From Nocardioides sp. (GTDB taxonomy: Bacteria; Actinomycetota; Actinomycetes; Propionibacteriales; Nocardioidaceae): a stretch of 53,009 nucleotides of DNA. Of this stretch, positions 1 through 53,009 are shown piece after piece. Below the pieces are notes generated by a model. The model did not search any database and was not told where the DNA came from. It was given only the letters and a program-made list of their open reading frames with translations. Every line of letters starts with the position of its first letter. The first letter of the stretch is position 1. Position numbers and translations under genes: made by a program. The DNA lies in the NCBI GenBank assembly GCA_036506675.1, contig DASXRJ010000059.1, forward strand, positions 1 through 53,009. The letters are read 5' to 3'.

Positions 1-85
1 CGTCCTGGCCGGCCTCGGCGAGGCGCCAGGCGGCGGTCAGCCCGGTCACCCCGGCGCCGACGATGATGGTGTCGTAGCTGCTCAT
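1..85 (-). CDS. FAD-dependent oxidoreductase (amine oxidase-like), 5' end only; runs off the window
   Basis: Own translation from ATG at 85: MSSYDTIIVGAGVTGLTAAWRLAEAGQD, a GxGxxG dinucleotide-binding start. Confidence 0.75.
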   Translation of the reverse strand, partial: MSSYDTIIVGAGVTGLTAAWRLAEAGQD

Positions 86-99
86 TTCCGGTCATCCTC

Positions 100-144
100 T
101 TATTGGTCACGTGCTCAATTGCTTGTTGGTTGTGAAGTCAATAA
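100..144. promoter_or_regulatory. Two tandem imperfect palindromes, consensus TTATTG-N10-CAATAA; probable TetR operators of the divergon
   Basis: ttattg-gtcacgtgct-caattg (100-121) and ttgttg-gttgtgaagt-caataa (123-144); the second overlaps -10 TAACAT (142-147). Confidence 0.6.
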
Positions 145-154
145 CATTCGGCTG

Positions 155-48952: not shown

Positions 48953-50022
48953 GACGTCGCCTCCTCCGCGACGACCACCCGCAGGATGTCTTCGTCGTCG
49001 ACGACGCCGACGAGCTTGTCACCGTCGACCACCCGGCACGGGCCGTGGTGGTCGAGCACCACGCGAGCCGCGTCGCGGACGATCTGGTCCGACCGCAGCA
49101 CCGGTCCGTCGGTGACGCGCTCTCCGTTGGGTTCGCGCATCACCCACTTCAGGGTCAGCACGTGCGACTTGGGCACCTCACTGGTGAAGTCCTTGACGTA
49201 GTCGTCGGCCGGGGCGCCCACCACCTCGTCCGGGGTCCCGATCTGGACGATCTCGCCGTCGCGCATGATCAGGATCCGGTCGCCGAGCTTGAGCGCCTCC
49301 TGCAGGTCGTGGGTAATGAAGATCATCGTCTTGCCGACCTCGTGGTGGAGCCGGATGACCTCGTTCTGCATGTCGCGGCGGATCAGCGGGTCGAGCGCGG
49401 AGAACGGCTCGTCGAACATGAGTACGGCGGGGTCCGCGGCGAGCGCTCGCGCCAGCCCGACCCGCTGCTGCATGCCACCCGAGAGCTGGTCGGGGTAGTT
49501 GTTCTCGTAGCCCTCCAGCCCGACCAGGTCGACCATCTCCTGGGCCCGGTTGCGCCGGCCGGTCTTGTTCTCGCCGCGCACCTCGAGGCCGAAGGCGATG
49601 TTGTTGATCACTTTGCGGTGGGGCAGCAGGCCGAAGTGCTGGAACACCATCGAGACCTGCTTGCGCCGCAGGTCGCGAAGCTGAGCCTCGCCGGCGCCGG
49701 TGATGTCGGCCCCGTTGATGACGACGCTGCCGGCGGTGGGCTCGATCAGCCTGGTCAGCAGGCGCACCAGCGTCGACTTGCCCGAACCGGACAGGCCCAT
49801 CACCACGAAGACCTCGCCCGGAGCGACGTCGAAGGACACGTCCTTGACGCCGATGACGCAACCGGTCTTGGCCTTGAGGTCGGCCCGAGACAGGTCCGCA
49901 TCGGGGGTGCCGATGACCCTGTCTGCACGGGGTCCGAAGATCTTCCAGAGACCGCGCACAGACACCGTTGCTTCGGGGCTGGTCTTCTCGGTCGGGATGT
50001 GCTCAAGCGGCTCGACGGTCAT
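48949..50022 (-). CDS. Glycine betaine ABC ATP-binding protein (ProV/OpuAA-like)
   Basis: 'GLSGSGKS', '[15 protein letters not shown]', 'DEPFSALDP'. Confidence 0.95.
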
Positions 50023-51746
50023 GGTGAGTCCTCACGGTTGCGGCTGTCGCCAGGCGGATACAAGGGCATGCCGTCCCGGTACCGGTAGAAGGCGACCTCG
50101 GCCGCCGGGAGAGGCGTGTTGCCCAGGATGAGGTCGGCCGCCTTCTCCGCGACCATCATCACCGGGGCGTAGATGTTGCCGTTGGTGACGTACGGGAAGA
50201 CGCTGGCGTCGACGACGCGCAGCCCCTCCAGTCCGTGCACCTTCATCGATCCGGGGTCGGTCACCGACAGGTCGTCGACCCCCATCTTCGCCGTGCACGA
50301 GGGGTGCAGGGCGGTCTCCGCGTCCTTGCGGACCCAGTCCAAGATCTCGTCGTCGGTCTCGACGGACGGTCCGGGCGACAGCTCGCCCGCGTTGTACGGC
50401 GAGAACGCCGGCTGGTTGAGGATGGTGCGAGCCACCCGGATCGCCTCGACCCACTCGCGCCTGTCGGTGGGCGTGGAGAGGTAGTTGAAGAGCAGCTTGG
50501 GGTGCTGCTTCGGGTCGGTGCTGGTGATCTTCACCCAGCCCCGGGTGTCGGCGTACATGGGGCCGACGTGCACCTGGTAGCCGTGGGCACCCTTCTCCAG
50601 CCCGGCCGGCGCGGAACCGTCGTACCGGATCGCGATCGGGAGGAAGTGGAACATCAGGTTCGGCCAGTCGACGTCGTCGTTGCTGCGGCAGAACCCGCCG
50701 CCCTCGAAGTGGTTGGTGGCGCCGAGGCCGCGGCGGTGGAAGAGCCAGTCGTAGCCGATCTTCGGCCGGGCCCGCCACCGCAGTCCGGGGGCGATCGAGA
50801 CGGGCTGCTTCGAGGCGTACTGGATGTAGACCTCGAGGTGGTCCTGGAGGTTCTCGCCGACGCCCGGGAGGTGGTGGACCATCTCGACGCCGAGCTTGGT
50901 CAGCTCCTCGGAGTTGCCGACGCCGGAGAGCTGGAGCAGCTGCGGGCTGTTGATCGCGCCACCACACAGAATCACCTCACCGGCTCCGACAGTACGCCGG
51001 CCGCGGCCGGCTCGCAGGTAGTCGACTCCGACGGCACGCTTGCCGTCGAAGTTGATCCGGGTGACGTGGGCCAGCGTCTCGACGCGGAGGTTGGGCCGGT
51101 CCATCACGGGGTGCAGGTAGGCGCGCGCGGCCGAGAGCCGGCGACCGCGGTGGATGTTGCGGTCGAACTTCGCGAAGCCCTCCTGGCGGTAGCCGTTGAC
51201 GTCGTCGGTCAGCGGGTAGCCGGCCTGCTGGACCGCCTCGAAGAACGCGCCGAAGAGCGGGTTGGCCGCCGGACCGCGCTCGAGGATCAGCGGCCCGGAC
51301 CCGCCGCGCCAGTCGTCGGCGCCGACGGTGCCGTCCTCGAGGAGCCGGGTCTCCATCCGCTTGAAGTAGGGCAGGCAGTGGAGGTAGTCCCACTCCTTCA
51401 TCCCGGGGTCGGCGGCCCAGCGTTCGTAGTCCATCGGGTTGCCGCGCTGGAAGATCATCCCGTTGATGCTCGACGAGCCGCCGAGCACCTTGCCGCGGGC
51501 GTGGTAGATCCTGCGGCCGTCCATCGCGGGCTCCGGCTCGGACTCGTACTTCCAGTCGTAGAGCCGGTTGCCGATCGGGATCGGCAGCGCGGCCGGCATG
51601 TGGATGAAGGGGTCGATCCGGAAGTCCGACCGGCCCGCCTCGAGCACGAGCACCGTCGTACCGGGGTCGGCGCTGAGGCGGTTGCCCAGCGCGCTGCCCG
51701 CCGAGCCGCCGCCGACGATCACGAAGTCATAGTGGTCGCGCCTCAT
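50019..51746 (-). CDS. betA: Choline dehydrogenase (GMC oxidoreductase)
   Basis: 'VGGGSAG', '[14 protein letters not shown]', 'GENLQDHLE', 'HPSCT', 'NGNIYAP'. Confidence 0.92.
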
Positions 51747-53009
51747 GTTTCGGCCACCTCTCCCGTCTGCTCTCCGGCGCCCGCGAACCAGCGCTGCGGC
51801 GCGGGGTTGATGTTGTGCCAGACGTGCTTGGTCTCGCGGTACTCCTCCAGGCCGGCCCGGCCCAGCTCGCGCCCGATGCCGGACTGCTTGTAGCCACCCC
51901 ACTCGGCCTGGGCGACGTACGGGTGGTAGTCGTTGATCCACACCGTGCCCATCCGCAGCCGGGCCGCGACCCGCTGGGCGCGGCCGGCGTCGCTGGTCCA
52001 TACCGCACCCGCGAGGCCGTAGATCGAGTCGTTGGCGATGCGTACGGCGTCGGCCTCGTCGGTGAACGTCTCGACGGTCAGCACCGGCCCGAACGACTCC
52101 TCCTGGGTGACCGACATGCCGCTCTTGCAGTCGTCGAGGATCGTCGGCAGGTAGTAGAAGCCGTCCGCGAGGGCCGGGTCGTCGGGACGACGCCCGCCGC
52201 AGCGGAGCCGGGCACCCTCGGCGAGCCCGGCGGCGACGTACGCCTCGACCTTGTCGCGGTGCGCGCCGCTGGTGAGCGGACCGGTCTCGGCGTGCTCGTC
52301 GAAGGGTCCGCCGAGCCGGATCCGGCGGGCGCCCTCGACCAGCGCGTCGACGAACCGGTCGTGCAGCTCCTCCTGGACCACGAGTCGGGCACCGGCCGAA
52401 CAGACCTGGCCCGAGTGCAGGAAGACCGCGGTCAGGGCGAAGTCGAGGGCGGTCTCCCAGAGCCCATCTGTTTGGCGGACGTCCGCGAAGACGATGTTGG
52501 GGTTCTTGCCACCCAGCTCGAGGGCGACCTTCTTCACCGAGCCGGAGGCCGCGGCCATGATCCGCTTGCCCGTGGCGAGTCCTCCGGTGAAGGAGACCAG
52601 GTCGACGCGCGGGTCCTCGCTGAGCGGTGCACCGGCGTTGGGCCCGTCGCCGACGACCAGGTTGGCCACGCCGGCCGGGAGGCCGGCCTCCTCGAGCACC
52701 TTCATCAGGTGGATCGAGGTGTGGGGCGTGAGCTCGCTCGGCTTGAGGACGAAGGTGTTGCCGGCCGCGAGACAGGGGGCGACCTTCCAGGCGACCTGGA
52801 GCAGCGGGTAGTTCCACGGCGTGATCAGCCCGCACACCCCGACAGGCTCGTGCACGATCCGGCTGACCACGTCGGGACTGCCGGTGTCGACGACCCGGCC
52901 GGCGTCGTCGTCGGCGATCCGCCCGAAGTGCCGGAAGACCGAGACCACGTCGGCGACGTCGTACGCAGCTTCGACGAGGCGCTTGCCGGTGTCGAGCGAC
53001 TCGGCCCGC
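51743..53009 (-). CDS. betB: Betaine-aldehyde dehydrogenase; 5' end lies outside the window
   Basis: 'PWNYP', 'ELGGKNP', 'GQVCSAG', 'EESFGPV'; ATGA-coupled to betA. Confidence 0.85.

What the first reader, a model, noticed from the sequence alone, without database searches (positions are those of the whole stretch)
1..53009. Highly iterated non-palindromic octamer CGNCGTAC/GTACGNCG throughout the window
Seen: by hand I count about 35 copies in the first ~10.4 kb (about 1 per 300 bp), on both strands. They make up roughly four-fifths of all GTAC sites there. Copies continue to the end, e.g. 185-192 overlapping 188-195, 15339, 15552, 16161, 18406, 25572, 37502, 48679. Many lie in CDSs on codons that are rare at this GC: GTA-Val in GGC-GTA-CTC, GCC-GTA-CTC and GTC-GTA-CCC, plus CGT-Arg and GGT-ACG. 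The motif occurs in several frames, so amino-acid content does not explain it. A base-composition estimate (about 72% GC assumed) gives only ~13 copies for the whole window. Known analogues are HIP1, DNA uptake sequences, Chi and KOPS; I do not know of this motif being described in actinobacteria. Inference: a genome-wide signal maintained by a methyltransferase with biased repair, a nucleoid- or repair-protein binding site, or an uptake/recombination signal.
Basis: partly seen in the sequence, partly recalled or inferred. Interest (0 to 1): 0.85.

Follow-up and report, generated by a model that had tools for sequence, protein, structure and literature searches.

The report
Self-spreading DNA word in Nocardioides
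A soil bacterium and most of its genus carry the DNA word CGNCGTAC thousands of times inside ordinary genes, each copy sits in a one-strand bias of nearby letters with a sharp edge 17 bases away, and this likely marks a still unidentified enzyme that rewrites one strand next to the word and so would spread it.

Summary
Observation confirmed and extended. The window holds 203 copies (12.6 expected from composition). The genome, a Nocardioides by its homologues' labels, holds 12,800. That is about 5x codon- and dicodon-aware nulls, in all six frames and in spacers, and 82% of GTA codons lie in the motif. Copies are unpolarised and Poisson-spaced, so not Chi or KOPS.

New here: each copy carries a strand-oriented footprint. 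Silent sites favour G over C on the CGNCGTAC strand out to +24, flip at +25 and recover at +41; near-miss controls are flat. Close pairs exclude each other up to the same edge. Near-miss odds break detailed balance, and motif-compatible tripeptides run at 1.4-1.6x. About 143 of 150 congeners are motif-rich, a few have lost it, and other families use other 5' extensions of GTAC.

No canonical DNA methyltransferase, MmeI, Mug or ComEC tracks it. Best reading (0.5): an unidentified site-specific factor triggers rewriting of the opposite strand, which drives the word. Rivals are an uptake or recombination signal (0.25) and a selected binding site (0.15). Seven literature searches and five look-ups in the scan's notes found no report of this motif.

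The parts
1..53009 (.). 203 dispersed copies of CGNCGTAC (102 on +, 101 on -), about 1 per 260 bp, 192 of them in called CDS
185..192 (-). copy (GTACGCCG on +), overlapping the next one at the divergent offset of 3, an arrangement that is otherwise disfavoured (36 of 326 opportunities filled)
188..195 (+). copy CGCCGTAC
12248..12259 (.). double site: copies on both strands share one GTAC (CGNCGTACGNCG); 11 such in the window, 879 on the motif-rich contigs
16173..16185 (+). illustration only: the +12..+24 zone of the copy at 16161, where silent sites on the motif strand favour G over C on average; a statistical property of all copies, not shown for this one
   Evidence: window alone ln OR 0.64 +/- 0.10
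16187..16200 (+). illustration only: the +26..+39 zone of the same copy, where the bias is reversed genome-wide; not significant in the window alone (-0.05 +/- 0.09)

Best explanation
CGNCGTAC is iterated genome-wide and each copy sits in a strand-oriented bias of neighbouring silent bases; it is likely the site of an unidentified sequence-specific DNA factor that would cut or mark the opposite strand and have it re-synthesised with the CGNCGTAC strand as template, which would fix new copies and repair damaged ones (molecular drive). SHOWN: all-or-none pull of synonymous and some non-synonymous choices into the exact octamer; no polarity; Poisson spacing; G>C, T>C, G>A and T>A on the motif strand at +12..+24, a flip at +25, recovery at +41 and a tail fading over 200-300 bp; exclusion of close pairs; unequal pull across motif positions. 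INFERRED: that a strand break lies near +25; that the opposite strand is the one rewritten to its left, because the favoured letters are those left by deamination of an exposed template or by new-strand C:C, A:C and A:A errors that NucS does not cut; that a second site inside the patch gains nothing, hence the exclusion; and that one inherited factor with a GTAC core and lineage-specific 5' readers explains the dialects. The protein was not identified.
For: Pull: a GTAC one silent change away is completed in 551 of 25,868 cases with no CGNC beside it, 4,869 of 7,431 with CGNC on one side and 244 of 274 with it on both. Footprint, ln odds G:C with gene and context effects, 305,186 sites in 1,800 of 2,928 genes: -80..-51 0.12, -35..-26 0.24, -25..-15 0.35, +12..+17 0.65, +18..+24 0.66, +25..+31 -0.11, +32..+40 -0.20, +41..+59 0.03 (s.e. 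0.01-0.04). The control CGNCGTSC stays within 0.02 beyond 50 bp and within 0.11 everywhere. The shape is the same in all six frames and scales with the pull of the N base (T 0.76, G 0.50, C 0.47, A 0.35 at +18..+24; fill 0.75, 0.69, 0.64, 0.51). It holds in both inferred replication orientations and is seen again in G144. T:C is +0.96 at +12..+17; A:G is -0.59 and T:A +0.39 at +18..+24. Pair exclusion: same strand 0.50-0.64 of baseline below 27 bp; convergent 0.24 at offsets 9-17 and 1.31 at 18-26, so it ends when the second site passes +24, the same edge found independently. No compensation at longer range: fill 0.69-0.73 whether the nearest copy is 30 or 500 bp away. Detailed balance: motif:near-miss odds over background are 5-14 at the dyad G and C of GTAC but 38-187 for the common alternatives elsewhere; yet CGNCGTAG and CGNCCTAC are themselves only about 1-2x enriched in the larger classes (odds ratios 1.39, 2.06, 1.48, 1.21), where graded reversible selection predicts about 9x. 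Sites turn over: 272 of 1,100 kept in motif-rich congeners. NucS prefers G-T, G-G and T-T and is weak or inactive on A-C, C-C and A-A (passages of PMC8228993 and PMC11109965).
Against: No enzyme was found; every candidate tested failed to track the motif or was uninformative. Divergence near shared copies is not changed (+12..+24: 1.01 +/- 0.06 of the gene mean, at about 40% silent divergence, so low power). The +25 flip is not seen in family f3 (G020: top-strand G on both sides, 0.09-0.22) and the footprint is nearly absent in f27, so the sharp edge may be genus-specific. Notches at -10..-7 and -40..-35, the strong C preference at +9 (ln OR -1.5) and a weak dyad-symmetric skew around GTAC sites outside the motif (0.12-0.21) are not explained. 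Two small classes gave odds ratios of 4.9 (6 of 85) and 3.3 (6 of 243). Selection for the site plus a mutation hot spot at the C of GTAC would also break detailed balance. Which strand is rewritten is inferred from base identities only. The replichore assignment rests on a weak residual skew and is partly circular.
Confidence: 0.5

Rival explanations
1. The word is an uptake or recombination-start signal (DUS-like, or an unpolarised Chi-like stop for two-ended breaks). DNA carrying it would be cut near +25 and one strand integrated preferentially, so the word spreads through homologous exchange and the footprint comes from the single-stranded or heteroduplex stage.
For: Non-palindromic, unpolarised, all frames, absent from foreign-looking contigs. 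Motif-compatible tripeptides are 1.4-1.6x, as reported for uptake sequences (about 2x, abstract of PMC2817400). comEA and comEC are present in G000. Lineage dialects exist. HIP1 has been proposed as an uptake signal (abstract of PMC13756078).
Against: ComEC is in 78 of 79 genomes regardless of motif, and the ComEA binding domains of 13 motif-rich and 8 motif-poor genomes show no diagnostic residue in the HhH region. Exclusion acts only within about 26 bp and the strong footprint within about 40 bp, shorter than the kilobase tracts recalled for transformation or resection. The same word is shared across families, which gives poor self-recognition. One copy per 294 bp is several times denser than the uptake sequences counted in the outline of PMC2817400 (765-1,892 per genome).
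Confidence: 0.25
2. The word is a selected binding site of an abundant chromosome protein. Each site gives a tiny additive benefit, close sites are sterically redundant, and the flanking bias reflects weak contact preferences or protection.
For: A selective advantage of only a few times 1/Ne per site would give the observed odds (inference). Short-range exclusion fits a footprint, and the weak preferences at -3..-1, N, +8..+10 look like an extended binding profile.
Against: No 10.5-bp periodicity; the bias comes in blocks with a sign flip and an oriented tail out to 200-300 bp. Spacing is Poisson (CV 1.02) with no compensation in gaps. Near-miss odds break detailed balance. Exclusion ranges (same strand 26, convergent 17, divergent about 17) do not fit one rigid footprint.
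Confidence: 0.15
3. HIP1-type model: a methyltransferase marks the site and methyl-directed repair ratchets near-misses into it (Elhai 2015).
For: The predicted ratchet and loss of drive near an existing site (PMC4390886, section 3.4) match the exclusion in kind. The low odds at the C of GTAC on both strands could reflect a modified cytosine. G000 has a Type III Mod-like orphan methyltransferase conserved in 147 of 150 congeners.
Against: That gene is present in 6 of the 7 lowest-motif congeners and was not found in motif-rich G463 (7.3x), G484 (8.1x) or G318 (4.4x), nor in 0 of 20 f27, 0 of 20 f18 and 0 of 15 f30 genomes. Complete G020 (16,052 copies) has no PF01555, PF00145 or PF02086 match. 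The MmeI-type domain is in 18 of 73 genomes without relation to the motif. A methyltransferase outside these families is not excluded.
Confidence: 0.07
4. A codon, codon-pair or amino-acid artefact.
For: Tyr-containing frames supply about half the copies in CDS.
Against: Excess in all six frames and in spacers; equal fill on either gene strand (0.65-0.66); congeners of like GC lack it (G435 12 of 1,322 and G491 0 of 866 opportunities filled).
Confidence: 0.01

Closest known systems
HIP1 (GCGATCGC) of cyanobacteria
   Same: An octamer iterated genome-wide inside genes across a large clade, with patchy losses and alternative words; a repair-ratchet model exists (PMC4390886, abstract and section 3.4 read).
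   Different: HIP1 is palindromic, tied to GATC and CGATCG methyltransferases and described as quasi-periodic (abstract of PMC13756078). This word is asymmetric, Poisson-spaced, has no tracking methyltransferase among the families searched, and carries an oriented flanking footprint; I saw no such footprint reported in the HIP1 text I read.
DNA uptake sequences (DUS of Neisseriaceae, USS of Pasteurellaceae)
   Same: Non-palindromic, unpolarised, written into all frames, raises compatible tripeptides, absent from foreign genes (abstract of PMC2817400); dialects (recalled).
   Different: Uptake preference and receptor untested here; far denser; shared across families; competence genes do not track it.
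Very-short-patch repair (Dcm/Vsr) and MutH/Dam-directed repair
   Same: A short site directs a nick on one strand, and the patch enriches the site and biases nearby changes (recalled; the MutH outline is also in PMC4390886).
   Different: Vsr corrects only T:G at a methylated C. Here all substitution types are pulled, A:T pairs are created against a 71% GC background, and Vsr was found in 0 of 5 genomes.
Chi (RecBCD/AddAB) and KOPS (FtsK)
   Same: Asymmetric octamer with a degenerate position, over-represented genome-wide (recalled).
   Different: No strand polarity relative to contigs or replichores.
MmeI-family Type IIL enzymes
   Same: Asymmetric site with a penultimate A and action 17-20 nt to its 3' side (geometry recalled), like the +25 edge.
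   Different: PF20473 is sporadic and was not found in most motif-rich genomes; restriction sites are not normally enriched.

Membership tests
HIP1 / alternate HIPs | Highly iterated genome-wide, inside genes | tested here: met
HIP1 / alternate HIPs | Palindromic word | tested here: not met
   one CGNC flank suffices (65% fill vs 2%); only the GTAC core is palindromic
HIP1 / alternate HIPs | A cognate DNA methyltransferase co-occurs | tested here: not met
   limited to five Pfam families and one protein query
HIP1 / alternate HIPs | Quasi-periodic spacing | tested here: not met
   gap CV 1.02 over 11,534 gaps; pair ratios flat beyond about 35 bp; contigs are short, so periods above about 10 kb were not tested
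HIP1 / alternate HIPs | The site is methylated in vivo | not testable with these tools
   needs single-molecule sequencing
DNA uptake sequences | Non-palindromic, both strands equally, all frames, raises compatible tripeptides | tested here: met
DNA uptake sequences | Competence machinery present | tested here: met
   comEA and comEC in G000, but ComEC is in 78 of 79 genomes, rich or poor
DNA uptake sequences | A sequence-specific receptor that tracks the word | tested here: inconclusive
   ComEA alignment of 21 genomes shows no diagnostic HhH residue; other receptors not examined
DNA uptake sequences | Preferential uptake of DNA bearing the word | not testable with these tools
   bench assay
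Chi / KOPS | Orientation skewed with replication direction | tested here: not met
   chi2 92.6 over 170 contigs; 2,448 vs 2,321 by inferred replichore, p 0.07; balanced in regions spread over complete G144, G318 and G020
Very-short-patch repair (Dcm/Vsr) | Vsr nickase and C5 methyltransferase present | tested here: not met
   Vsr 0 of 5; PF00145 not found in G000, G144, G020 or G326; G000 is 82% complete
Very-short-patch repair (Dcm/Vsr) | Only C-to-T near-misses depleted | tested here: not met
   all substitution classes are pulled
Very-short-patch repair (Dcm/Vsr) | Site-directed, strand-biased short patch | tested here: inconclusive
   footprint and exclusion fit; no nick was observed directly
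MmeI-family Type IIL enzymes | MmeI-type gene in motif-bearing genomes | tested here: not met
   18 of 73, in rich and poor alike

The most novel reading that the evidence does not exclude
Many actinobacteria carry an undescribed, methylation-independent, sequence-directed strand-choice system: a GTAC-reading factor with lineage-specific 5' dialects breaks one strand about 17 nt from its site and decides which strand is kept during repair. It supplies a strand signal in cells whose NucS pathway has no known one, and it has written its own site thousands of times into genomes and proteomes.
Probability: 0.3. Interest if true: 0.92.

Novelty: new variant of a known kind. Interest (0 to 1): 0.8.

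Why it matters
HIP1 and uptake sequences are the known cases of a short word rewriting a whole bacterial genome, and why such words accumulate is still argued. This case is in a third large group, at one copy per 300 bp, and it leaves a measurable oriented footprint that points to where and on which strand something acts. Natural losses inside one genus (G435, G491) make the responsible gene findable by comparison. If the factor steers repair, it bears on a listed open question: how strand discrimination is done in NucS-type mismatch repair (Table 2 passage of PMC8228993). It also means that codon usage, Tyr and Val contexts and composition-based detection of foreign DNA in these genomes are shaped by a DNA-level process and not by translation.

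Tried and rejected
Candidate proteins.
- Orphan Type III Mod-like methyltransferase (G000 C116): looked ideal at first (14 of 15 congeners, 0 of 3 in the motif-poor sister genus); rejected.
- C5 methyltransferase, D12/Dam-like (47), N6_Mtase (21, 44), MmeI-type (69): not tracking.
- Mug glycosylase, a frequent neighbour of the methyltransferase: 59 of 79, present in poor genomes, not found in some rich ones.
- NucS: in 4 of 5, including motif-poor G220; not found in incomplete G000.
- ComEC 78 of 79; ComEA no diagnostic change; Vsr 0 of 5.
- R.PabI family 0 of 5, but no control genome matched, so uninformative.

Other tests.
- Synteny-gap scan of about 0.48 Mb of motif-poor genomes: 27 missing G000 genes, no evident DNA enzyme.
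- Divergence against distance from the motif: flat near shared copies, low power; a larger ortholog set could not be fetched.
- Strain variants from public soil runs: contigs only, table cut to 40 of 732 rows and mixed with other organisms, so no gain or loss test was possible.
- RecA and RpoB were not found in incomplete G000, so the genus rests on homologue labels.
- Plasmid searches gave no Nocardioides record among the rows shown; phages were not examined.
- The reversed-word control ratio is only a screen: motif-free genomes give 1.1-2.1, so ratios near 2 prove nothing without the fill test.
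Full report
Scope and data. The window is contig C59 of G000, a 3.76 Mb, 71% GC assembly in 397 contigs, 81.7% complete with 3.8% contamination. 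Homologues of one of its proteins at 74-78% identity are labelled Nocardioides; the genus name rests on that. The window's genes are ordinary metabolism and transport. Genes were called with a self-trained dicodon model (3,621 genes). Counts use all 3,235 confident CDS. Footprint and fill analyses use 2,928 CDS on the 319 contigs with at least 2 copies per kb. I set aside 65 contigs below 1.2 per kb (315,523 bp) and 13 in between; this choice raises fill rates slightly. The 65 look like binning contamination: 59 of their 254 proteins have a homologue on the rich contigs, some of them housekeeping genes at 60-86% identity. Positions are numbered 0-7 along CGNCGTAC on its own strand.

The observation. 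It holds in every detail: 203 copies against 12.6 expected, 192 of 244 GTAC sites. Genome-wide there are 12,800 copies. In CDS the count is 4.4x a synonymous shuffle and 5.2-5.4x models trained away from the motif, and it stays 1.7-5.2x in each frame under a dicodon chain that includes the motif. Short spacers give 262 against 33-49. The motif holds 82% of GTA codons and 26% of TAC codons.

The recognition rule is close to all-or-none. A GTAC one silent change away is completed in 2.1% of cases without a CGNC flank (551 of 25,868), 65.5% with one (4,869 of 7,431) and 89% with two (244 of 274), equally on either gene strand. N matters modestly (T 0.75, G 0.69, C 0.64, A 0.51), and there are weak preferences at -3..-1 and +8..+10, above all C at +9. 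The pull reaches the proteome: RRT 1.42, [APST][APST]Y 1.51, Y[ADGV][ADEGV] 1.49 and VRR 1.58 times expectation, against 0.93-1.00 for the reversed peptides and 1.01-1.11 in motif-poor genomes. Two other compatible classes are barely raised (1.10 and 1.03).

Distribution along the chromosome. No polarity: chi2 92.6 over 170 contigs, 2,448 vs 2,321 by inferred replichore, and balanced counts in regions spread over three complete genomes. Gaps are Poisson (CV 1.02). Fill does not rise in empty stretches (0.69-0.73 from 30 to 500 bp), so sites are not selected for even coverage. At short range copies exclude each other: same strand 0.64 and 0.50 of baseline at 9-17 and 18-26 bp, convergent 0.24 at 9-17 but 1.31 at 18-26, divergent 0.60 at 9-17. 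Sharing one GTAC is favoured (879 cases).

The footprint. At four-fold sites the CGNCGTAC strand prefers G over C from about -34 to -11 and from +12 to +24. It flips between +24 (ln OR 0.36) and +25 (-0.04), stays near -0.2 to +39 and returns to zero by +41. With all copies modelled jointly and gene effects removed, the values are 0.65-0.66 at +12..+24 and -0.20 at +32..+40, with a tail of 0.12 at -80..-51 and about 0.04 out to 200-300 bp; the control word CGNCGTSC is flat. Of 13 control words, the nine without GTAC show no comparable profile (CGNCGTTC and CGNCGTAG give up to about 0.2 upstream). The four that keep GTAC show an upstream skew only, and GTAC outside the motif has a weak dyad-symmetric skew. 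The footprint recurs in all six frames, scales with the N-dependent pull, is independent of inferred replication direction and recurs in G144. The same zone favours T over C, G over A and T over A. The convergent exclusion ends exactly when the second site passes +24, so two independent measures give one edge.

Drive or selection. Under reversible selection the motif:near-miss odds should be the same at every position. They are 5-14 at the G and C of GTAC and 38-187 for the common alternatives elsewhere. Graded selection would rescue this only if CGNCGTAG and CGNCCTAC were themselves about 9x enriched; the larger classes give 1-2x, two small ones 3-5x. So something non-reversible acts at the site: biased repair, or selection plus a hot spot at that C. 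Individual sites turn over (272 of 1,100 kept).

Mechanism (inferred). A break near +25, followed by re-synthesis of the opposite strand leftwards and less often of the motif strand rightwards, accounts for the edge, the flip and the tail. The favoured letters are those expected if the motif strand is the exposed template, or if new-strand C:C, A:C and A:A errors survive. NucS cuts G-T, G-G and T-T but little else (passages of PMC8228993, PMC11109965), and G:C>C:G is the commonest residual change in wild-type Streptomyces (31% of 147; passage of PMC11109965). The same patch would fix a copy that arises on the motif strand and restore one damaged on the other strand, and would cancel the advantage of a second site inside it. 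Against this: no enzyme was found, divergence near shared copies is unchanged (low power), the notches at -10..-7 and -40..-35 are unexplained, and the flip is not seen in f3 or f27.

Phylogenetic spread. The ratio to the reversed word is 16.8 in G000. By my reading of the table, 143 of 150 near-complete congeners exceed 3.1 and seven are at about 3 or less. G435 and G491 are true losses with no replacement word. The sister genus g9 is near 2, and G220 fails the fill test (6 of 658). Family f3 (8 Mb genomes of the same order, Kribbella by my inference) reads CGNMGTAC, with CGNA strongest. f27 (Streptomyces by inference) reads C-GTAC, and named Streptomyces loci show the same 5' C. G034 and named Nonomuraea and Thermoactinospora loci favour CC-GTAC (the named loci are 21 kb each). 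f6 has CGNCGTAC again. Named whole genomes (48 searched): Micromonospora 4.3, Actinoplanes 4.1, Actinocatenispora 3.9, Streptomyces 2.5-3.9, Cellulomonas 3.4, one Nitriliruptoraceae MAG 6.9; Mycobacterium 1.1, Pseudonocardiaceae 0.9-1.5, Knoellia 1.1, Arachnia 0.6-0.9. Several unnamed families reach 4-13. Kin are not independent, and no tree-based test was run. Genomes flagged unpublished (G049, G054, G061, G273, G453) enter only the tallies; no single claim rests on them.

Candidates. The only PF01555 gene in G000 is an orphan Type III Mod-like methyltransferase, kept in 147 of 150 congeners but uncoupled from the motif. Complete G020, with 16,052 copies, lacks PF01555, PF00145 and PF02086. 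MmeI, Mug and ComEC do not track the motif, ComEA shows no diagnostic change, NucS is also in a motif-poor genome, and Vsr was not found.

Literature. No report of the motif was found in seven searches of the held library: (the word itself, both strands). Most subscription papers and REBASE are outside that library. Seen: PMC4390886 abstract and the first part of section 3.4; PMC11109965 and PMC8228993 selected passages; PMC13756078 and PMC2817400 abstract and outline; PMC6159521 and PMC12369329 search listing only. No supplements were opened. Chi, KOPS, Vsr, MmeI geometry and DUS dialects are recalled. The scan's notes hold no finding on this word; they hold GTAC/AGTACT excess in enteric phages and other iterated words in other phyla, none checked here.

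Verdict. Real, strong and apparently undescribed. It works like HIP1 or an uptake sequence in rewriting a genome, but it fails membership of HIP1, Chi/KOPS and VSP, and DUS membership is untested. The oriented footprint with a sharp edge is the new handle. New variant of a known kind, interest 0.8; the missing protein is the main weakness.

Noticed in passing
L001:1369-2595 (G000 C116:5228-6454): Orphan Type III Mod-like adenine methyltransferase of about 390-410 aa with no Res gene in the neighbourhoods examined, kept in 147 of 150 genomes of the genus at 64-80% identity and not found at that level elsewhere in the class sample; often beside a Mug-like glycosylase gene. Its target is unknown, and it is not the cause of this motif.
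   Followed up: partly
G000, 65 contigs such as C33, C67, C94, C248: 315 kb at host-like GC but background motif density, with duplicated housekeeping genes at 60-86% identity: probable binning contamination. Motif density is a sharp binning marker for this genus.
   Followed up: partly
G000 genome-wide, positions -10..-7 and -40..-35 from the motif: Two notches about 30 bp apart where the strand bias vanishes; at -10..-7 rare A/T-ending codons are also depleted. The first notch recurs in G144 and G020.
   Followed up: no
G000 genome-wide, GTAC sites outside the motif: Weak dyad-symmetric skew, G on the 5' side out to about 38 bp (ln OR 0.12-0.21), also at sites with two or more mismatches on both flanks.
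   Followed up: partly
G435 (L174-L179), G491 (L180-L183): Near-complete congeners that have lost the motif entirely; G385, G386 and G401 are low. Natural knockouts for finding the gene.
   Followed up: partly
G539 (locus L260, Nitriliruptoraceae MAG): Ratio 6.9 in a genome of another actinobacterial group, due partly to a low control count; fill not tested.
   Followed up: no
G020, L129-L148: Motif density is higher from about 4.0 to 7.0 Mb (36-54 per 20 kb) than from 1.25 to 3.5 Mb (27-43).
   Followed up: no
window 27539-30265: SCO1167/SCO6262-family Snf2 helicase (1,144 bits, cut-off 1,200); no link to the motif tested.
   Followed up: no
G000 genome-wide: Runs of six or more G or C are strongly avoided (7-mers at 0.03 of the codon-aware expectation), and GCTCAA/TTGAGC words are about 2.5x over; may be codon-pair effects.
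   Followed up: no
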